Source: a virus
Reading direction: 5' to 3' (one strand)
DNA length: 39,253 nucleotides
Virus record (IMG/VR): IMGVR_UViG_2920817954_000001
Span: 1-39,253 of that record
Shown in pieces: positions 1 to 39,253 of the stretch (position 1 is the stretch's first letter; each line of letters begins with the position of its first letter). A model generated the notes under the pieces. The model did no database searches, was not told the origin of the DNA, and was given only the letters and a program-made list of their open reading frames with translations. The translations under genes and the position numbers were made by a program.

Positions 1-55
1 CTATGGCCGCAGAAACCTCAATCGGCGGACGGGTCGCGCCAGCGCCCACGCTCAC
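1..55. repeat. terminal overlap, identical to 39199..39253
   Basis: The same 55-nt string (CTATGGCCGCAGAAACC...CGCCCACGCTCAC) is at both window ends. Confidence 0.95.
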
Positions 56-1776: not shown

Positions 1777-3224
1777 TGCCCCTTGTTGAGTTTGTCGGAC
1801 AGTCCGTACAGGACAGCGGCAACATAGCCATTAACCCCGGCAGGCTGGTGAATTGCTACCGGGAGCTTGTTGTGGGGCAGGGGCGTAGCCAATACGTGCT
1901 GCAATCCGTTCTGGGCATGGATCTGCTGTCAGACCTTGGCGCGGCGACTGTTCGCGCAATGGGTATCGGCAACAGCAAGAACTGGGTTGCGGGCGACGGG
2001 AAACTGTTTGAAGCCGCCGGAGACGGTACGCTAACGCAGCGCGCTGTTGTGGCAGATGATGCAGTCACGACCATTGAGGGCAATGAAGGCGATGTGACGG
2101 TCGTTTCCGGGACTGCCTATTACCTGTGGAACGGCTCCACACTTTCTCAGCCCACAACAAAGACATTCACAGACGTTCTCAGCCATTTCTACATCGGCGG
2201 ATATACCGTCATTCTGGAGGATGGCGGCAAACGATTTCAGTGGTCTGCGATTGGTGATGCAAGCTCGCTGGATGCTCTGGATTTTGCTTCTGCAGATCAG
2301 GTTGACGGCAATCTGGTCCGTGGTTTTGAAGTCCAGGGGCAGGCTGTCCTGATGAGTGAGCGCCACAGCGAACTGTGGGCGGTTACCGCAGCAACTGACA
2401 GCGCAGAGGTGTTTCAGTTTACCACAAGCTGGAACCGTGGGCTTAAGGCGCACAACCTGGCAGTGAAGTTTGATGACAGCCTGTTCTGGGTGGGGGACGA
2501 CAACAACGTTTACGTAGGGTTTGGGCCGGGTGCGGTTGATGTCACAACCCCGGCAGTAAACACATCGCTTGAACAAAATACCGCAACACATTGTTTTTAC
2601 TATGAAGATCGCGGTCACAAGTTCTGCGTGCTGCGATTCAGTGACCGCGCTGCATGGGTCTATGACGTTAAGATGCAGGAATGGCACGAGCGCGCAGAAG
2701 GAGCAGGCGATGGTGCATGGCGGGCGGTTGCGTCGATCAAGGGCGATACCTGGCAGGTCGGCAACACTGTGGGCGAGATTTACAGCCTGTCCAACACGAA
2801 CAAGGATCTGAATGGCCTTCTGCGCAGGACCGCAACGTCCCGGCCTGTTTACACTGGCGACAAATTCCGGGTGGTCAAGCTCGAACTGAGCGCTCGCGTC
2901 GGGGAAAACACCCTGAGCGAGGCAACGGACTTTGGTCTGGACGCTGGCGAAGGGGATATTCTGGACGCAGGCGGCGGGGAAGGCCTGAAACTTGACGCTA
3001 TCCCGGCTGGGGAGCGCGCAGCAACGGTCAACCTGTTTGTTTCACGTGATGGCGGCAGAACATGGACAGATGCGAAGCCGCGCTCTCTGGGCCTTGCTGG
3101 CGATTATGACCAGCGCACGGTGTGGCGCGCGTTGGGGCAGGCACACCAGTTTGCGGTGAGAGTGCAGGTTTCTGAGCCCGCTGATTACCAGATCAACACA
3201 ACAGCCGTTCTGGAGGTCGCATGA
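1776..3224 (+). CDS. virion protein, possibly P22 gp10-like DNA-stabilisation/tail hub protein
   Basis: 482 aa, translationally coupled. Size and position after capsid and adaptor resemble the P22 gp4/gp10 order. No motif-level proof. Confidence 0.6.
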   Translation: MPLVEFVGQSVQDSGNIAINPGRLVNCYRELVVGQGRSQYVLQSVLGMDLLSDLGAATVRAMGIGNSKNWVAGDGKLFEAAGDGTLTQRAVVADDAVTTIEGNEGDVTVVSGTAYYLWNGSTLSQPTTKTFTDVLSHFYIGGYTVILEDGGKRFQWSAIGDASSLDALDFASADQVDGNLVRGFEVQGQAVLMSERHSELWAVTAATDSAEVFQFTTSWNRGLKAHNLAVKFDDSLFWVGDDNNVYVGFGPGAVDVTTPAVNTSLEQNTATHCFYYEDRGHKFCVLRFSDRAAWVYDVKMQEWHERAEGAGDGAWRAVASIKGDTWQVGNTVGEIYSLSNTNKDLNGLLRRTATSRPVYTGDKFRVVKLELSARVGENTLSEATDFGLDAGEGDILDAGGGEGLKLDAIPAGERAATVNLFVSRDGGRTWTDAKPRSLGLAGDYDQRTVWRALGQAHQFAVRVQVSEPADYQINTTAVLEVA

Positions 3225-17983: not shown

Positions 17984-18048
17984 CCCGCTTTGAGCGCGAA
18001 CAAAACAAGGGGAATTTGCGGAACAGAGGGTGAAACAGCACCCTGTGA

Positions 18049-18098
18049 CTGCCCTCCGAAGGCAGAGGCCAGAGGTTCGAATCCTCTAGGGTCCGCCA
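18049..18098 (+). other. attP core candidate: 3' portion of a tRNA-Arg(CCG) gene
   Basis: Anticodon arm CTGCC-CTCCGAA-GGCAG, variable AGGCC, T-arm AGAGG-TTCGAAT-CCTCT, acceptor 3' strand AGGGTCC, G, CCA. No D-arm or proper 5' acceptor. Lies 295 nt from the integrase stop. Confidence 0.7.
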
Positions 18099-18392: not shown

Positions 18393-19424
18393 TCACCGCT
18401 TTCTCTCCACTGCATCCAGCGCCGACGCCATGTAATCGGTCGCGTGGTGTCCATAGGTCTTTTCAATCGTCTGCTGGCTGGTCGCAAAGAACCCGGCCAC
18501 GTCCCATGTTTTCGCGCCGTTCTGCAACGCCCATGTAATGGCCGTGTGTTTCAGCGTGTGGGGTGTCACGCCTTCCAGGCCAGCATCCCCCACGATCCGC
18601 GCGAAAGAGCGCTTCACGTCGCCTATGCGCAGTCCCTCGTACTCAACTGCCCAGCGTGCCCCGGAGGCTTTCCAGCGGCGCAGGTGGCCCAGTAGCTGGC
18701 GCGGTATCGGGGCAGGGGTTCTGCGCTTCTTTGTCTCGCGCTCACCATCTCCCATGCGGAACATGATACCGCGCTCAAGGTCAAACCACCCACCCACGGT
18801 GGAGGGCTCAAATCCCATTCGCAGAATCGCGTCCTTCCGGGTGCCGGTATAAAGCCCGATCAGTACAAACCGCGCTAGGTGCTTCGTCTTGTGTCCCCTG
18901 TAGGCTGTCCAGACAAGCCGCGCGGCCTCCTCACGGGTCAGCCAGCGCTCACGGGACTTGGGGGCCTCTGGCAGCGTCACCAGCGGCGCGGAGGTCACGT
19001 ATCCCTCGCGGTTCGCATAGTTCATAGCGGCTTGCAGTGTGCCCAGTTCGCGCCGAACCGTGCCGGGCGACTTGTCGCGCCACTTCGCATAACGGCGGCA
19101 TGTCTCACCTTTGACGTGGGTCAGCTTCAGATCCGCCCAGAACGGCAGCAGCGCATCAATGGCGTAACCGATACGTTCCGGCGCTGCGACTGTTGGGGCG
19201 TATTCCTCGGCGTACACGGTCAATGCTTCTCCGCAGGTGTAGTTTTCCGGCTCAGTGGCAGCACCTGACCGCCCTTTGGTTGCGATGTAGGCCCCGAGCG
19301 CTTTTTCAGCTTCTGCGCGGCTTGTGCAGCCCGTGCTGCGGTCGGGTTTGCCTGTGTCCCGGATGTAGAAGTGCGGTCGGTGTTTGAATTTGTGGAGCCG
19401 GGCTCCTTTGGCTGGTCTCGGCAT
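18393..19424 (-). CDS. int: tyrosine integrase
   Basis: 343 aa. C-terminal catalytic region has HTLKHTAITW and TYGHH (Tyr). Adjacent to the tRNA-derived attP. Confidence 0.93.
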   Translation of the reverse strand: MPRPAKGARLHKFKHRPHFYIRDTGKPDRSTGCTSRAEAEKALGAYIATKGRSGAATEPENYTCGEALTVYAEEYAPTVAAPERIGYAIDALLPFWADLKLTHVKGETCRRYAKWRDKSPGTVRRELGTLQAAMNYANREGYVTSAPLVTLPEAPKSRERWLTREEAARLVWTAYRGHKTKHLARFVLIGLYTGTRKDAILRMGFEPSTVGGWFDLERGIMFRMGDGERETKKRRTPAPIPRQLLGHLRRWKASGARWAVEYEGLRIGDVKRSFARIVGDAGLEGVTPHTLKHTAITWALQNGAKTWDVAGFFATSQQTIEKTYGHHATDYMASALDAVERKR

Positions 19425-22539: not shown

Positions 22540-22874
22540 CAAAAGTCCACCTCTCCAATTTGCGCCGCGACCTGCGGCAGATATTCGTAATCAAACCCGT
22601 GCTTTTCGGCCCACTTTTTCTTGCCGTTGTGGATAGCCTCCGGGCCGTCCTGATGATGCGCCTTGCACAAGGGTATGGTTTGCTTGTCAGGAGCCCTGCG
22701 ATGCCCGTAGCGCCCGTGTATGACGTGGTGAGCGTCTGAGGGGGCAGGAGCGCCACAGATCACGCAGGGAAGCTGCTTGACCCGTTTCATCCAGTCTTTA
22801 CCGGCGCGCTTTTCCGCAGCGGTCAGCTTTTCAGGCTTCTCGAACGGCGGGCGCATGGGGGCTATGCGGCTCAT
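22539..22874 (-). CDS. ref: Ref-like (DUF968/HNH-type) recombination-enhancement nuclease
   Basis: LPCVICG...DAHHV...IPLCKAHH...AIH pattern, as in P1 Ref-family nucleases (from memory). Confidence 0.55.
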   Translation of the reverse strand: MSRIAPMRPPFEKPEKLTAAEKRAGKDWMKRVKQLPCVICGAPAPSDAHHVIHGRYGHRRAPDKQTIPLCKAHHQDGPEAIHNGKKKWAEKHGFDYEYLPQVAAQIGEVDF

Positions 22875-23386
22875 GCTGCGCCTCTTTTGTAAAAATCCGT
22901 TGCACTCTCTGAGGCGAAGGCAGGAGCATCCTTGCCGCGCTTACAGAGCCGGTCATAAAGAACCACGTTCACAGTGGCGGCCAAATTCATGCACGTCCGC
23001 GTCGGCACATAAACAACGTGCTGTGCGCGTTCAGTCACTGACTTGCCAAGAGTCCCATCTTCAGGGCCGAATACATAGACAGCCTTTTCGGGGTGCTGGA
23101 AAGCAGGCAGGGGCTTTGCCCCATCAATCAAATCCACCGCCACAACAGGGCAATCAAACGGCAGGTATTCCAGCGGATCAGAGACCCTGAAAACAGGAGT
23201 GTGTCGGTGCGCGCGCGGTGTATTCGTGGCGTGGTTTATGGCCTTACCCATCCAATTCCAGCACGTTCTGCGTCCTGCAATATTGACCTGCGACACGCCA
23301 TAGGCATAGGAGGCGCGCAACACGCCGCCCACGTTCTCAGGTGTCTTTGGGTTAAACAGTGATATGCAGGAAAACCCTCTGCTCAT
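22871..23386 (-). CDS. SPOUT (SpoU/TrmH/TrmL-type) RNA 2'-O-methyltransferase
   Basis: Three SpoU motifs: NPKTPENVGGVLRASYAYGV, VYVFGPEDGTLG and VYVPTRTCMNLAATVNVVLYD. The ATG at 23386 has a GGAGGGAAG RBS. Confidence 0.8.
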   Translation of the reverse strand: MSRGFSCISLFNPKTPENVGGVLRASYAYGVSQVNIAGRRTCWNWMGKAINHATNTPRAHRHTPVFRVSDPLEYLPFDCPVVAVDLIDGAKPLPAFQHPEKAVYVFGPEDGTLGKSVTERAQHVVYVPTRTCMNLAATVNVVLYDRLCKRGKDAPAFASESATDFYKRGAA

Positions 23387-23414
23387 TTGCTTCCCTCCGG
23401 GACAGTTAAACGGC

Positions 23415-23801
23415 TCATGCTTTTGCCTCATCTGACCAAACCACGCCTTGCTCATCACCCCACTGGATAATGAACGTGATCAGGTCAGCCATCTGAGAAA
23501 CACTGAGGCGGCTGGACCTGAAACCCATCGGGAAGGGGTCGCCATCAAGGCCGATTGCAAAAGTGACTTCGTGTTCACAGGCTTTCATGAAAACCGCCTT
23601 CCAGTATTCTCTGTCTCGCTTCTGTCCGCCCAGCTCCTTTTGCTTGGAAACGTCATTCAGCATCGCCCACAGCTTAGAATTCTGCTGGTTCGTCCTTGTG
23701 GGCTTTGTGAAAATCACGCTCACGCCATCTTCAGCGACACCTATCCAGTGCTTGGCGCGAGCGCGCGTTTCCGGGTTTATGAGGCGGACGGTGGCGGCCA
23801 T
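23415..23801 (-). CDS. ninB: NinB/Orf recombination mediator
   Basis: QQNSKLWAMLNDVSKQ and SSRLSVSQMADLITFIIQWGDEQGVVWSDEA align with lambda NinB (DQNRKLWACLGDVSRQ; TSRMRVGEFAELLELIQAFGTERGVKWSDEA). Confidence 0.88.
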   Translation of the reverse strand: MAATVRLINPETRARAKHWIGVAEDGVSVIFTKPTRTNQQNSKLWAMLNDVSKQKELGGQKRDREYWKAVFMKACEHEVTFAIGLDGDPFPMGFRSSRLSVSQMADLITFIIQWGDEQGVVWSDEAKA

Positions 23802-33097: not shown

Positions 33098-33390
33098 CCC
33101 CACAACAGGAAGCGGAAATGGGCCGCCAGATGCTGGAGATGGTAAGGCAGGAGCGGCATTACAGGAAAGCGTTTCGTCAAAACATCCAGACGGGGCTGAA
33201 GCAAGAATATGTTGCTGATCGTCGCCAGAGGATGCTGGAATTTCTCGGAGAAAACGGCCCGACTGATATTGCTGTACTGCACGAACTTAACGCTCCTGAA
33301 AAAGCACATGACGACGTGAGAAACCTTCAGGCCATGGGCCTCATTCGTCGGGTTTCTCTGGGCGTCTATGCGCTGAGTGAGGCGGAATGA
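33094..33390 (+). CDS. winged-helix protein (98 aa)
   Basis: GTG start (GTGA coupling) with a GAGGAG RBS. LEFLGENGPTDIAVLHELN...MGLIRRV. Confidence 0.5.
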   Translation: MTPQQEAEMGRQMLEMVRQERHYRKAFRQNIQTGLKQEYVADRRQRMLEFLGENGPTDIAVLHELNAPEKAHDDVRNLQAMGLIRRVSLGVYALSEAE

Positions 33391-33950
33391 CCTGGTATCT
33401 GGCATACGTTCAGGGCGGCAAGACCACCAAAGCCGAAGGCGGCGGGGAAAAGATCCGCAAAGAGTTCTACGTTCAGCAGGAACTGGATGACATGGGCGTG
33501 ACCAATTACCTGCCCCGGCACATCGAGTTTAAGCGGGTCGGCAAGAAGCGCTACGCAGAGCCGTTCGAGAACCCCCTGCTGCCGAATTACATATTCGTGG
33601 AGACGCCCGCAGAGCGCTTTCTGGAAGTTTTGGGCGTCAAGTACCTTCCGGGGCCTCTGATGGCACTCAGCAGGGCGGACGTTGCCGCTCTGGGCACATT
33701 CCGGGCCGAAGTGAACGAGCAATACGCCAAGGCGAGGCGCGCGGCGGAAAACAGGGAGGCAATCGCGGAGTATATCCGGGGGCAGAAGCTGGAGGTCATG
33801 GACAGCCGGTTTGCGGGCAGTGTTCTGAGGTTCCGGCGCATGGTACAGCGCGCCCATGACATGTATCCGAAGGTAGAGGCGTCCATAGAAATGATGGGGC
33901 GTGAGGTTATTGCGGAACTGGACCCGCTGGATGTGAGGGCTGCGGAGTAG
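33387..33950 (+). CDS. NusG/RfaH-like transcription antitermination factor
   Basis: NGN-like WYLAYV...PLLPNYIFVE and a KOW-like GQKLEVMDSRFAGSVLRF. Last early-right gene, directly before the late promoter. Confidence 0.6.
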   Translation: MTWYLAYVQGGKTTKAEGGGEKIRKEFYVQQELDDMGVTNYLPRHIEFKRVGKKRYAEPFENPLLPNYIFVETPAERFLEVLGVKYLPGPLMALSRADVAALGTFRAEVNEQYAKARRAAENREAIAEYIRGQKLEVMDSRFAGSVLRFRRMVQRAHDMYPKVEASIEMMGREVIAELDPLDVRAAE

Positions 33951-33955
33951 GGGTG

Positions 33956-33984
33956 TTGACTTTTGAACTTTGTTCATTTAGATT
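33956..33984 (+). promoter_or_regulatory. late promoter candidate TTGACT-N17-TAGATT
   Basis: TTGACT at 33956-33961 and TAGATT at 33979-33984, with a 17-nt spacer, starting 6 nt after the NusG-like stop. Confidence 0.6.
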
Positions 33985-34334
33985 CAGGCAAAGCCTGATC
34001 CAGCCCTGCGGCGGTTTGTGGCGGCCACACCCGATAACCATCGGGTGCTACTGCATTTTAGGAGTCTGACATGACCAAAGGTGATGGCGGCACAGCCACG
34101 ATAGAAGGCTACGGCGGATGAGCAAAGAGGGTTACAGAGGCCAACCGCTTTCATGTGGTGTGTCAGGCTAAAGAGAAAATCCTGATGAAGTCAGGAGAAC
34201 GGCACAGACCGTAGGCTTCGGCCCTATCTTTAGTCGGCACCCTTCATGAGCGCGGTGGCGTGGAAATCGGAACTGGTTAAATTCCAGAGCGGACGAGACC
34301 AGCCGCTGTCAAACGACAGGTAGCCGGAGTGCCG

Positions 34335-34481
34335 CCCGGCCCGCGTTCAAGTTATTAAGGCCTAGGGTTGCGGGTTCGAATCCCGTCTGGCAGCGGTGAC
34401 TAAAGGGGCAGACAACTCCTCACCGCTTATCCTGCAGGAAGCCAGTAGCTCAATTGGACAGAGCATAGAGCGCGGACCGGG
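34335..34481 (+). ncRNA. permuted tRNA-like structured RNA element within the late leader
   Basis: Closing helix 34335-48/34468-81 (13 of 14 positions pair). T-arm GCGGG-TTCGAAT-CCCGT at 34370-86. Acceptor-like helix CTGGC/GCCAG at 34387-91/34441-45 with an inserted 8-bp hairpin. D-arm GCTC-AATTGGACA-GAGC at 34448-64. Confidence 0.5.
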
Positions 34482-34638
34482 ACGTGCAGTCAAACCCGGA
34501 GAAATTACAGGGCCGCAAGGTTCCACGTTGTTTCGGCAACACCCCTCAGATCACGGTCTGGGGGCCATCAATTAAACGGGGCTGCCACCCTTCAGTTTGC
34601 GGATCTGGCCAAAACCGCACCCTTTCTCAGGAGTATCT

Positions 34639-34815
34639 ATGCTGACAGCACAGGACGTTGCCTTTTTTGACGACGAACTAACGGCAGCAGAGCTTCACGT
34701 TGTTAATTGCATGGATTCATGGCTGGCAGACGACGCCAACAGCCCCGCAGAACTACTGGAGGCAATGGCTGATTTCATTCAGCGCGTTGTCATAGAAACA
34801 CACACAACACACTAG
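34639..34815 (+). CDS. hypothetical acidic protein, first late gene (58 aa)
   Basis: The ATG at 34639 has an AGGAG RBS and lies inside track ORF 34597..34815. Confidence 0.55.
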   Translation: MLTAQDVAFFDDELTAAELHVVNCMDSWLADDANSPAELLEAMADFIQRVVIETHTTH

Positions 34816-34825
34816 GAGGCAGCAT

Positions 34826-35107
34826 ATGCCTGCACACGTAGCATTCGCAAAGCCGATGGACGGGATCGCGCCGGTCATCTCTGCCATCCCTTCGTCCAGT
34901 GAGCTGGTCGCAGACGGCGGCACGAGCACCGCAACAGCAAAGGCGACAGACGTCGCTGTGGTTGTGGCCACATCAGATGTATACGTGGCTTTCGGCACAA
35001 CTCCCGGCACACCTTCAGCAACAAACGGCCATCGCATCCCGTCAGGCGCTGTTCAGACGTTCGGCAGCCTTGACGCCGGGTTCAAGATGGCAGTCGCGGC
35101 TGTTTAA
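34826..35107 (+). CDS. hypothetical protein (93 aa, Ala/Thr/Val-rich)
   Basis: Strong RBS TAGGAGG. Confidence 0.6.
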   Translation: MPAHVAFAKPMDGIAPVISAIPSSSELVADGGTSTATAKATDVAVVVATSDVYVAFGTTPGTPSATNGHRIPSGAVQTFGSLDAGFKMAVAAV

Positions 35108-38570: not shown

Positions 38571-39253
38571 ATGTCCGATACGGATGATCTCAACGATATT
38601 ATTGACGAAACTCCAGCAGAAGAAACTCCGGTAGAGCCGGAGCAGCCCGAAGAGCCACAGCCGGAAGAGCCGGTTGTCCAGGCGGAACCTGCCGAACCTG
38701 CGCAACCCGCAGAGCCTGCAGCCCCGCCGATGGTGCCGCAGGCCGTCATTGGCGAGGTGAGAGCGGAAAACCGCGCCCTCAAAAAGCAGCTTGAGCAACT
38801 CGGGCAGATGGTTCAGAGCCAGCAACCCGAACCGCAGGCCCCGGATTTCTACGAAAACCCGGAAGCAGCGGTTCAGCACCATATCCAGCCCGTTCACAAG
38901 GCGCTGGAGGCCCAGAAAATGCAGATGTCCCGCTTTACGGCGGAACAGCAGTTCGGGCCGGAACTGGTGCAGCAGGCTTACGACTATTTCGAGGCAAACC
39001 CACAGGCGTCACAGGCGCTTATGGGGCATCCGTCGCCATTCCACGCAGCGGTGCAGGAGTATCAGAAGGCGCAGATTGCGAATGAGGTCGGGAACGATCC
39101 GGCAGCATACCGCGAGAAGATCCGCGCAGAAGTTGAGCAGGAAATCCGGAGGGAAATGGAGGCCAAGCAAACGGCTGCAGCGGTCGCGCAAGCGCCCTCT
39201 ATGGCCGCAGAAACCTCAATCGGCGGACGGGTCGCGCCAGCGCCCACGCTCAC
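38571..39253 (+). CDS. scaffolding-like protein (runs off the window end; completes at 83 after circular closure, 236 aa)
   Basis: ATG at 38571 with no stop before the window end. Pro/Glu-rich N-terminus then a coiled coil. Lies between portal and capsid. Confidence 0.6.
   Translation, partial: MSDTDDLNDIIDETPAEETPVEPEQPEEPQPEEPVVQAEPAEPAQPAEPAAPPMVPQAVIGEVRAENRALKKQLEQLGQMVQSQQPEPQAPDFYENPEAAVQHHIQPVHKALEAQKMQMSRFTAEQQFGPELVQQAYDYFEANPQASQALMGHPSPFHAAVQEYQKAQIANEVGNDPAAYREKIRAEVEQEIRREMEAKQTAAAVAQAPSMAAETSIGGRVAPAPTL

What the first reader, a model, noticed from the sequence alone, without database searches (positions are those of the whole stretch)
34335..34481. Circularly permuted tRNA-like domain (T-arm, closed acceptor helix, D-arm) clamped by a 14-bp helix
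On the + strand a canonical T-arm (GCGGG-TTCGAAT-CCCGT, 34370-34386) lies upstream of a canonical tRNA 5' half (TA-GCTC-AATTGGACA-GAGC, 34446-34464).

The 5 nt after the T-stem (CTGGC, 34387-91) pair with the 5 nt before the D-arm (GCCAG, 34441-45). This gives an acceptor-type helix whose ends are joined rather than free. The joining segment carries an 8-bp hairpin (AGCGGTGA/TCACCGCT, 34392-99/34420-27). There is no CCA and no anticodon arm.

Where an anticodon stem would emerge, CCCGGCCCGCGTTC (34335-48) pairs with GAGCGCGGACCGGG (34468-81) at 13 of 14 positions, one of them G.U.

As I recall it, this is the topology of the tRNA-like module of bacterial Y RNAs (YrlA), which normally sit next to rsr/Ro. 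No Ro/TROVE gene is present in this genome.

Possible roles, all inferred:
- a tRNA mimic or decoy
- a substrate for the phage SPOUT methyltransferase
- an RNase P processing signal in the late transcript
Basis: partly seen in the sequence, partly recalled or inferred. Interest (0 to 1): 0.8.

Follow-up and report, generated by a model that had tools for sequence, protein, structure and literature searches.

The report
Orphan permuted tRNA-like RNA in phage leader
A Ruegeria phage carries, in the untranslated leader of its late genes, a well-formed tRNA body with rearranged strand order, no anticodon and no free end; it has the shape of bacterial Y RNAs but is not a member of that family, has no Ro protein partner in the phage, and is so far found only in this one genome.

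Summary
A canonical T-arm, a 5-bp closed acceptor-like helix carrying a 36-nt hairpin, a canonical D-arm and a 14-bp clamp (extendable to about 25 bp) fold together as the minimum-energy structure. Every standard tRNA tertiary pair can form, and the clamp is far stronger than chance.

The topology is that of the tRNA-like domain of YrlA (bacterial Y RNA). Membership fails:
- The Rfam YrlA hit scores 35 bits against a threshold of 69 and covers only the tRNA core.
- Junctions between ordinary adjacent tRNA genes score the same.
- A model I built from 13 Ro60-adjacent phage YrlA RNAs gives true YrlAs 53-91 bits and tRNA junctions 38-48. It gives this element 33.5, core only.
- There is no Ro-binding motif, and no TROVE gene in the complete circular 39-kb genome.

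The element sits in a mosaic late-operon leader, after a NusG/UpxY-like antiterminator gene and a promoter. The closest relatives, 93-99% identical in the flanks, carry unrelated sequence there. One relative carries an intact tRNA-Trp in the same leader. No homologue was found anywhere. The two halves resemble a roseophage tRNA-Arg.

Best reading (about 0.4): a Ro-independent tRNA-body mimic carried as leader cargo. A neutral recombination by-product remains a serious rival.

The parts
33387..33950 (+). Context: gene for a NusG-like (UpxY/RfaH-type) transcription antiterminator immediately upstream of the leader
   Evidence: Pfam NusG, phrog_6386 antiterminator; NCBIfam UpxY/NusG/RfaH, weak and below the curated cut-offs
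33956..33984 (+). Sigma-70-like promoter (TTGACT-17-TAGATT), the presumed late promoter that would transcribe the leader
   Evidence: Consensus scan; sequence conserved in the closest relatives L001/L003. Function is inferred.
34324..34348 (+). Clamp, 5' strand. The core 14 nt are 34335-34348; weaker extension runs 34324-34334. It stands where a tRNA anticodon stem would emerge.
   Evidence: Folds; duplex energy versus shuffles and genomic controls
34349..34364 (+). Unpaired 16-nt junction or bulge (AAGUUAUUAAGGCCUA) on the 5' side. It has no anticodon-arm or YrlA V-arm equivalent.
   Evidence: Folds; no match to model R2 outside the core
34365..34369 (+). Variable-loop equivalent GGGUU (G44-U48). 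U48 can pair with A15 (Levitt pair).
   Evidence: Sequence inspection in tRNA numbering
34370..34386 (+). Canonical T-arm: GCGGG / UUCGAAU / CCCGU
34387..34391 (+). Acceptor-like helix, 3'-strand equivalent (CUGGC)
   Evidence: Pairs with 34441-34445
34392..34427 (+). Hairpin (36 nt) inside the 49-nt segment (34392-34440) that closes the acceptor-like helix: 8 bp AGCGGUGA/UCACCGCU, a CUAAA internal loop, 4 bp GGGG/CUCC and a 7-nt loop
   Evidence: inverted repeat I6
34428..34440 (+). Linker containing a possible 3-bp mini-hairpin (UCC-UGCA-GGA)
   Evidence: MFE fold; weak
34441..34445 (+). Acceptor-like helix, 5'-strand equivalent (GCCAG)
34446..34465 (+). U8-A9, canonical D-arm (GCUC / AAUUGGACA / GAGC, with A20) and A26. 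The D-arm is of the type seen in tRNA-Arg genes.
34468..34499 (+). Clamp, 3' strand. The core is 34468-34481; weaker extension runs to about 34499.
34639..34815 (+). Context: first ORF of the late operon (58 aa, NOD65800.1). Its RBS and start region are conserved in relatives whose leaders differ.

Best explanation
The element is a tRNA-derived structural RNA module, most similar to a tRNA-Arg body. It is carried as cargo in the 5' leader of the phage late operon.

It would be transcribed from the promoter at 33956-33984, under the NusG/UpxY-like antiterminator encoded just upstream. The RNA folds into a tRNA-like L-shape with an intact D-loop/T-loop elbow. It has no anticodon arm, which is replaced by a 14-25-bp rod. 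It has no free acceptor end, because the acceptor-like helix is closed by a 49-nt hairpin-bearing segment. It therefore cannot decode or be charged.

It most likely acts as a Ro-independent tRNA mimic. It would present the tRNA elbow and body to a host or phage protein that recognises tRNA shape, such as a processing or modification enzyme or a tRNA-directed nuclease. It may act after release from the leader by cleavage in the long double-stranded clamp or at the acceptor-like helix.

**Shown:** the sequence anatomy, its statistical non-randomness, its position in a non-coding leader, and the absence of Ro. **Inferred:** transcription, processing, the L-shaped fold, and any binding partner.
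For: - The structure is complete and error-free. T, D, acceptor-like and hairpin helices contain no mismatches. All tRNA tertiary pairs are possible.
- The clamp abuts the core exactly where the anticodon stem would leave. It is stronger than 2000 of 2000 shuffles and 2998 of 3000 genomic controls.
- No trace of the missing tRNA halves is detectable in the flanks (Rfam at E<=10). This argues against in-situ decay of two whole tRNAs.
- The topology equals that of YrlA. The literature reports that YrlA folds like tRNA and is modified by TruB and DusA (PMC4201824; 10.1101/312249).
- The region is non-coding. PGAP protein accessions are consecutive across the gap, and the ORFs there have no homologues.
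- The leader is a cargo slot for tRNA-type RNAs: a relative carries an intact tRNA-Trp 20 nt upstream of the same first late gene's ribosome-binding site.
Against: - It is a singleton. The closest relatives (93-99% identical flanks) have unrelated sequence in its place.
- More than 30 leaders next to homologous antiterminator genes have no match.
- No homologue was found in IMG/VR, JGI metagenomes or GTDB representatives (pattern scans).
- Nor was one found in GenBank phages or PLSDB plasmids, or among proteins via antisense-ORF searches.
- Hence there is no conservation or covariation evidence at all.
- There are no expression data.
- No partner protein is identifiable in the genome.
Confidence: 0.4

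Rival explanations
1. Neutral by-product of recombination. A fragment spanning the junction of two adjacent (Arg-type) tRNA genes, or a tRNA piece inserted into a pre-existing leader hairpin, was captured recently in a highly mosaic leader. It has no function of its own. It looks perfect only because it is young.
For: - It is absent from the nearest relatives and from all other relatives.
- The leader is demonstrably mosaic, with different inserts in L003, L103 and L104.
- Junctions of adjacent tRNA genes automatically give the T-arm / closed acceptor / D-arm order. They score the same or better with both YrlA models.
- Tandem identical tRNA-Arg genes with the same CTGGC/GCCAG closure exist in metagenomes (L112, L114, L118).
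- Both halves resemble one roseophage tRNA-Arg.
Against: - A tRNA-gene junction does not explain a 14-25-bp clamp placed exactly at the anticodon-stem exit.
- It does not explain the perfect 12-bp hairpin in the closing segment.
- It does not explain the complete absence of the outer tRNA halves.
- All four core helices and all tertiary positions are intact.
Confidence: 0.3
2. Cis-acting processing or stability element of the late transcript. The tRNA-like fold recruits RNase P (and/or the long clamp recruits RNase III) to cut the leader. This would remodel the 5' end of the late mRNA, much as genuine tRNAs embedded in operon leaders are excised.
For: - It lies in the leader 158 nt upstream of the first late start codon.
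- A relative has a real tRNA, which must be excised, in the same leader.
- M. smegmatis YrlA is cleaved by RNase P (PMC4201824).
- A clamp of about 25 bp with small bulges is in the size range of RNase III substrates (established knowledge).
Against: - The acceptor-like helix has only 5 bp before a junction. The YrlA structure paper states that most closed acceptor stems are poor RNase P substrates (10.1101/312249).
- Close relatives manage without it.
- No cleavage data exist.
Confidence: 0.2
3. A genuine Y RNA that works with a host-encoded Ro60 (Rsr), for example to redirect the host Rsr/PNPase machinery during infection.
For: - YrlA-type topology with a long stem formed by the flanks.
- GCCGGAG at 34323-34329, on the 5' strand of the extended stem, is one mismatch from GNCGAAG. 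The same heptamer occupies the motif position in a viral YrlA-like RNA with weak adjacent TROVE similarity (L171).
Against: - No exact Rsr motif is present. A one-mismatch match is expected by chance in a stretch of this length.
- The Ro60-adjacent YrlA model matches only the tRNA core, at 33.5 bits, below negative controls.
- There is no TROVE gene in the phage, whereas true YrlAs lie next to Ro60 (PMC4201824).
- The host genome could not be examined.
Confidence: 0.07
4. A fragment of a permuted (two-piece) alphaproteobacterial tmRNA gene, or the tRNA-derived core of the phage attachment site.
For: - Two-piece ssrA precursors have the same order: T-arm, acceptor 3' strand, intervening loop, acceptor 5' strand (established knowledge).
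- Phages often carry tRNA or tmRNA 3' fragments at attP.
Against: - ARAGORN finds no tmRNA.
- Rfam gives no alpha_tmRNA/tmRNA hit even at E<=10.
- A canonical D-stem is present, which I recall is absent from the tmRNA tRNA-like domain (my own knowledge). There is no CCA, no G3:U70, and no tag ORF or pseudoknot.
- The integrase (18393-19424, minus strand) and a tRNA fragment (18038-18095) lie 16 kb away.
Confidence: 0.02

Closest known systems
YrlA (Y RNA-like A; Rfam RF02553), the tRNA-like Y RNA of bacteria and mycobacteriophages
   Same: The strand order is identical: long stem from the flanks, T-arm, closed acceptor-like stem-loop, D-arm. T- and D-loop sequences are conserved and an A15-U48 Levitt pair is possible. 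A long closed acceptor stem is known in some YrlAs (PMC4201824). It is the only Rfam family hit.
   Different: - It lacks the 5' Rsr motif, the GUUACUUC box and the V hairpin that are conserved in Ro60-adjacent YrlAs.
- The clamp is about twice as long.
- No Ro60 gene is nearby or anywhere in the phage.
- It scores below negative controls with a family model.
Junction of tandem tRNA genes / dimeric pre-tRNA (the origin proposed for YrlA in 10.1101/312249)
   Same: T-arm, acceptor 3' strand, spacer, acceptor 5' strand, D-arm. The closure CTGGC/GCCAG and the D-arm type match tandem tRNA-Arg genes. Scores are similar with the YrlA models.
   Different: No complete tRNA lies on either side and no remnants of the outer halves are detectable. 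It has a strong clamp and a structured closing hairpin that tRNA junctions lack.
Circularly permuted tRNA genes of red algae and archaea
   Same: Closed acceptor stem, with the anticodon-side stem formed by the 5' and 3' ends of the transcript (10.1101/312249, discussion).
   Different: Those encode a full anticodon arm and mature into real tRNAs through a splicing endonuclease and ligase. Here there is no anticodon loop and no bulge-helix-bulge motif.
tRNA genes carried downstream of the late antiterminator in lambdoid phages
   Same: Same genomic niche: between the antiterminator gene plus late promoter and the late genes. A relative (L104) carries tRNA-Trp in this leader.
   Different: This element cannot be charged or decode.
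tRNA-like modules in large ornate phage RNAs (GOLLD)
   Same: A T-arm / closed acceptor / D-arm module overlaps the 5' end of a GOLLD-like RNA in a metagenomic contig (L119).
   Different: No GOLLD, ROOL or other Rfam family matches the window leader, even at E<=10.

Membership tests
YrlA / bacterial Y RNA (RF02553) | tRNA-like domain with T-arm, closed acceptor-like stem-loop and D-arm in permuted order, with the tRNA tertiary nucleotides | tested here: met
   The Rfam alignment covers model positions 23-89.
YrlA / bacterial Y RNA (RF02553) | Score at or above the Rfam gathering threshold (69 bits) | tested here: not met
   The score is 35.0 bits. Junctions of ordinary adjacent tRNA genes score 31.7-35.1 bits. 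Real long-stem YrlAs next to TROVE also score only 33-40 bits, so this test discriminates poorly.
YrlA / bacterial Y RNA (RF02553) | Family-specific flanks (5' motif region, GUUACUUC box, V hairpin, 3' stem) as in Ro60-adjacent YrlAs | tested here: not met
   Model R2 was built from 13 TROVE-adjacent viral YrlAs. Independent true YrlAs score 53-91 bits, nearly all over the full model length. tRNA-junction controls score 38-48 bits. The window scores 33.5 bits, local only, positions 60-113.
YrlA / bacterial Y RNA (RF02553) | GNCGAAN0-1G motif near the 5' end (proposed Rsr/Ro60 contact; PMC4201824) | tested here: not met
   There is no match in 33951-34640. The nearest is GCCGGAG at 34323-34329, with one mismatch, which is not above chance.
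YrlA / bacterial Y RNA (RF02553) | Encoded within about 4 kb of a Ro60/TROVE gene on the same strand | tested here: not met
   No TROVE domain occurs among 58 ORFs of 100 aa or more in the complete circular genome. The host chromosome was not available.
YrlA / bacterial Y RNA (RF02553) | Physical binding to Ro60/Rsr | not testable with these tools
   Needs immunoprecipitation or in-vitro binding.
tRNA (RF00005) | Cloverleaf in normal order with an anticodon arm and a free acceptor end | tested here: not met
   ARAGORN finds none. Rfam tRNA finds none at E<=10; the only weak hit is tRNA-Sec at 18 bits over the T-arm.
Two-piece (permuted) tmRNA | tRNA-like domain with encoded CCA and G3:U70, pseudoknots and a tag reading frame; recognised by ARAGORN or Rfam alpha_tmRNA | tested here: not met
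   The closure pairs are all Watson-Crick, there is no CCA after CUGGC, and a canonical D-stem is present.
attP tRNA fragment | Partial tRNA next to the integrase gene | tested here: not met
   The integrase is at 18393-19424 (minus strand), with a tRNA fragment at 18038-18095. The finding is 16 kb away, in the late leader.
GOLLD / ROOL ornate phage RNAs | Match to the conserved domain of the family | tested here: not met
   No hit at E<=10 in 33800-34900.

The most novel reading that the evidence does not exclude
This would be the first example of a Ro-independent, phage-borne tRNA-body mimic. It is a minimal tRNA-Arg-derived elbow on two long rods, expressed with the late genes. It would titrate or recruit a factor that reads tRNA shape, such as RNase P, a modification enzyme or a tRNA-directed defence nuclease. 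That would mean the permuted-tRNA design of Y RNAs has been reinvented or repurposed outside the Ro system.
Probability: 0.2. Interest if true: 0.7.

Novelty: new variant of a known kind. Interest (0 to 1): 0.4.

Why it matters
If functional, it would show that the circularly permuted tRNA design, known so far only as the effector domain of Ro60-bound Y RNAs, can work without Ro. It would also show that temperate phages of marine Roseobacter-group bacteria carry non-decoding tRNA mimics in the slot where relatives carry real tRNAs. That would give a simple, testable system for asking what a bare tRNA elbow does in a cell: one RNA, one phage, a culturable host.

If it is only a recombination by-product, it is still a snapshot of how YrlA-like RNAs could arise from tRNA-gene junctions.

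There is also a practical point. Sub-threshold Rfam YrlA hits cannot be trusted either way. Junctions of adjacent tRNA genes and genuine long-stem YrlAs score alike.

Tried and rejected
1. **Homologues by DNA pattern.**
   - Generic T-loop...D-arm patterns in IMG/VR and GTDB genomes returned only tandem tRNA genes.
   - Patterns fixing the closure helix gave 0 hits in IMG/VR.
   - In JGI metagenomes they returned tRNA-Arg tandems, att-like repeats, a GOLLD-linked module and soil YrlAs. None was homologous outside the core.
2. **Homologues by synteny.** I examined 16 contigs from Logan, ENA, JGI and NCBI, plus 19 IMG/VR loci, all carrying the homologous antiterminator gene. I also examined contigs carrying the downstream genes. 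None carries the element.
3. **BLAST.** Searches of the leader or module against GenBank phages and PLSDB plasmids gave nothing beyond tRNA arms.
4. **Spurious-ORF trick.** The antisense 54-aa ORF was searched against 5.8 billion and 1.84 billion proteins. No hits.
5. **Conserved leader box** searched in IMG/VR: 0 hits.
6. **Decay-remnant test.** Local alignment of the flanks against the module halves and against the MD18 tRNA-Arg was not significant (p = 0.24-0.90).
7. **Flanking direct repeats** GC(T/A)GTCAAAC as a target-site duplication: not above chance.
8. **tmRNA, attP and GOLLD/ROOL readings:** rejected.
9. **Supplementary tables of Chen et al. 2014**, to see whether Roseobacter-group bacteria have Ro60: not held.

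Full report
**What the window is.** The window is the whole 39,253-bp contig of the Ruegeria sp. HKCCD6109 assembly (proteins NOD65799-NOD65802). It has a 55-bp exact terminal overlap, so it is a closed circular phage genome. It encodes a P22-type portal, a large terminase and a capsid protein. It also encodes a cI/Cro-type switch, replication and recombination genes, a SpoU methylase, an integrase and five tRNAs.

**The observation.** Every coordinate in the finding is correct.
- a 14-bp clamp (12 Watson-Crick pairs, 1 G.U, 1 C.A);
- the T-arm;
- a 5-bp closing helix that continues into an 8+4-bp hairpin;
- the D-arm.

The same helices survive when the entire 656-nt leader is folded. In context the clamp extends to about 34324/34499.

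The duplex formed by the two clamp flanks is -38.8 kcal/mol. It is unmatched in 2000 shuffles and matched by only 2 of 3000 equally spaced segment pairs from the same genome.

In tRNA numbering the core keeps U8, A14, A15, G18, G19, A20, A21 and A26. It also keeps a 5-nt variable loop ending in U48, and U54-U55-C56...A58 with G53-C61. All the classical tertiary contacts are therefore available. There is no anticodon arm and no free acceptor end. ARAGORN and Rfam see no tRNA or tmRNA here.

**Genomic setting.**
- The element lies on the coding strand in a 690-nt gap that holds no annotated protein. The PGAP accessions are consecutive across it.
- Upstream is a 187-aa NusG-like protein (Pfam NusG; phrog 'transcription antiterminator'; nearest NCBIfam models UpxY, NusG and RfaH).
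- A sigma-70-like promoter follows, TTGACT-17-TAGATT at 33956-33984.
- Downstream, from 34639, come three small ORFs, the terminase and the portal.
- This is the layout of a late-operon leader under a dedicated antiterminator. Transcription of the element as part of that leader is inferred, not shown.
- The integrase (18393-19424, minus strand) and a partial tRNA (18038-18095) lie 16 kb away. The element is therefore not the attachment site.

**Is it a YrlA?** The only Rfam family that touches the region is YrlA, at 35.0 bits (E = 1.2e-5). That is half the gathering score. The match is confined to model positions 23-89, the tRNA-like domain, with a 49-nt insertion in the acceptor loop. I calibrated this hit in both directions.

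- *Genuine YrlAs can score this low.* A metagenome pattern scan recovered a soil family of RNAs with long closed acceptor stems. They sit directly upstream of a TROVE/Ro60 gene, yet score only 33-40 bits. The threshold therefore misses real family members.
- *Non-YrlAs can score this high.* Junctions between ordinary adjacent tRNA genes (tRNA-Arg/tRNA-Arg, tRNA-Arg/tRNA-Lys) score 31.7-35.1 bits over the same model positions.

The Rfam hit therefore reports only the order T-arm / closed acceptor / D-arm.

For a sharper test I collected YrlA-like RNAs from IMG/VR. I kept the 13 that lie next to a TROVE ORF, aligned them (T-stem and acceptor-stem pairs covary) and built a covariance model. Results:

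| Sequence set | Score (bits) | Extent of match |
|---|---|---|
| Independent Ro60-adjacent soil YrlAs (main copy per locus; second copies 48-77) | 61-86 | full length |
| Other viral YrlA-like RNAs | 53-91 | mostly full length |
| tRNA-junction controls | 38-48 | full or partial |
| The window element | 33.5 | local, T-arm to D-arm only |

Three further points count against membership:
- The conserved 5' region of true YrlAs has no counterpart here. That region comprises the Rsr-motif area, a GUUACUUC box and a V hairpin.
- The motif GNCGAAN0-1G (PMC4201824) is absent from the leader. The nearest string is GCCGGAG at 34323-34329, one mismatch away and not above chance. The same heptamer does occupy the motif position in one viral YrlA-like RNA with weak adjacent TROVE similarity (L171).
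- No TROVE domain exists among the 58 ORFs of 100 aa or more.

The element therefore has the YrlA topology but fails the family's defining features.

**Relatives.**
- The nearest contigs (L001-L003) are 99% identical upstream of the antiterminator gene, 93% across it and 95% at the first late gene. They carry unrelated sequence in place of 34016-34625.
- Only short leader boxes are shared. One is the promoter/start region. The other is CACCCTTCAGTTTGCGGATCTGGCCAAAACCGC.
- Two other variants of the same leader differ again. L103 has another unrelated insert. L104 has an intact tRNA-Trp(CCA) 20 nt upstream of the ribosome-binding site of the same first late gene.
- More distant loci with a homologous antiterminator gene contain no tRNA and no match to Rfam YrlA or to my model of the element. 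These are 16 contigs and 19 IMG/VR loci.

The leader is thus a mosaic cargo site, and this cargo is unique to this genome.

**Searches for homologues elsewhere.** All were negative:
- closure-specific patterns in IMG/VR, GTDB representative genomes and JGI metagenomes;
- BLAST against GenBank phages and PLSDB plasmids;
- searches with the antisense ORF against two protein collections.

These searches are limited. Pattern scans need exact matches, and Logan and ENA cannot be searched at the DNA level. Absence is therefore provisional.

**Origin.**
- The best nucleotide match to both halves at once is the tRNA-Arg(UCU) of Phaeobacter phage MD18, another Roseobacter-group phage. The T-arm plus three acceptor bases differ at 1 position, and the D-arm region at 2.
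- The D-arm type (with A20) and the CTGGC/GCCAG closure also occur in tandem tRNA-Arg genes.
- A tRNA-Arg ancestry, probably through a junction of two gene copies, is therefore likely. This is the route proposed for YrlA itself (10.1101/312249).
- The flanks keep no detectable remnant of the missing halves.
- A gene junction explains neither the clamp nor the structured closing hairpin.

**Mechanism.**
- *Best-supported reading (about 0.4).* It is a Ro-independent tRNA-body mimic expressed with the late genes. It would present an intact tRNA elbow on two long helical arms to some factor that recognises tRNA shape, possibly after excision from the leader. Only the anatomy and context are shown. 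Everything downstream is inference by analogy with YrlA, which is modified by TruB and DusA and in one species cut by RNase P (PMC4201824).
- *Main rival (about 0.3).* It is a young, neutral recombination product in a promiscuous slot. The total lack of conservation fits this reading.
- *Genuine Y RNA using a host Ro60.* Unlikely (about 0.07).
- *tmRNA or attP readings.* Effectively excluded.

That protein (22871-23458, minus strand) shows only weak, far sub-threshold similarity to TrmJ/TrmL-type enzymes, which modify the anticodon loop. This RNA lacks an anticodon loop.

**Verdict.** The structure is real, striking and correctly described. It is a new variant of a known design (permuted tRNA mimic, YrlA-like), not a member of the YrlA family. 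At present it is a singleton with no comparative or expression evidence. Interest is moderate.

Noticed in passing
L104:112-186 (ENA ERZ23498655), equivalent to just upstream of window 34620-34638: A related phage variant carries an intact tRNA-Trp(CCA) in the same late leader, 20 nt upstream of the ribosome-binding site of the same first late gene. The leader therefore acts as a slot for tRNA-type cargo.
   Followed up: partly
window 34238-34246, 34540-34548, 34586-34594: A CACCC(T/C)TCA box occurs three times in the leader. The third copy lies in a 33-nt block (CACCCTTCAGTTTGCGGATCTGGCCAAAACCGC) conserved in relatives whose leaders otherwise differ. The blocks are candidate recognition sites for the NusG/UpxY-like antiterminator.
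   Followed up: no
window 34462-34469 and 34636-34643: AGCATAGA (D-stem 3' strand plus junction) is perfectly complementary to TCTATGCT, which covers the start codon (34639) of the first late gene. An 8-mer match is within chance expectation for this region, but it could couple the fold to translation.
   Followed up: no
window 18038-18095 (+) and 18393-19424 (-): A partial tRNA (Rfam tRNA 30.1 bits, just above threshold; not called by ARAGORN) lies next to the integrase gene. It is probably the attP core, pointing to integration into a host tRNA gene.
   Followed up: no
window 1-55 and 39199-39253: A 55-bp exact terminal overlap shows that the contig is a closed circle. It is a complete phage genome assembled separately from the Ruegeria chromosome.
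   Followed up: yes
L107, L108, L111, L115, L117, L120-L123 (e.g. L115:2174-2327 and 2837-2947, minus strand): A soil-metagenome family of YrlA-like RNAs with long closed acceptor stems, in some loci with a second or third copy, lies directly upstream of a TROVE/Ro60 gene where that was checked. They score only 33-40 bits with Rfam YrlA (threshold 69). Junctions of ordinary adjacent tRNA genes score 32-35 bits, so the Rfam model cannot separate the two classes below threshold.
   Followed up: partly
L119:589-1090 (-) (Ga0069001_10001837): A GOLLD-like RNA (70 bits, E = 4e-16, below the 150-bit threshold) has at its 5' end a T-arm / long closed acceptor / D-arm module (YrlA model 40 bits), within a phage tRNA cluster.
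   Followed up: no
L261:4532-4679 (+), L229:6414-6563 (-), L179:4023-4166 (-): These IMG/VR contigs carry clear YrlA-family RNAs (91, 72 and 53 bits with the Ro60-adjacent model). No TROVE ORF was detectable within the several kb of flank held. YrlA RNAs may exist in phages away from, or without, Ro60.
   Followed up: partly
window 34305-34314 and 34486-34495: Imperfect 10-nt direct repeats GC(T/A)GTCAAAC bracket the clamped module and resemble a target-site duplication. They are not statistically above chance.
   Followed up: yes
window 22871-23458 (-): A phage SpoU-family RNA 2'-O-methyltransferase is present (Pfam E = 3e-18). It cannot be assigned to a subfamily; it has weak TrmJ/TrmL similarity. 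The phage has five tRNAs of its own that could be its substrates.
   Followed up: partly
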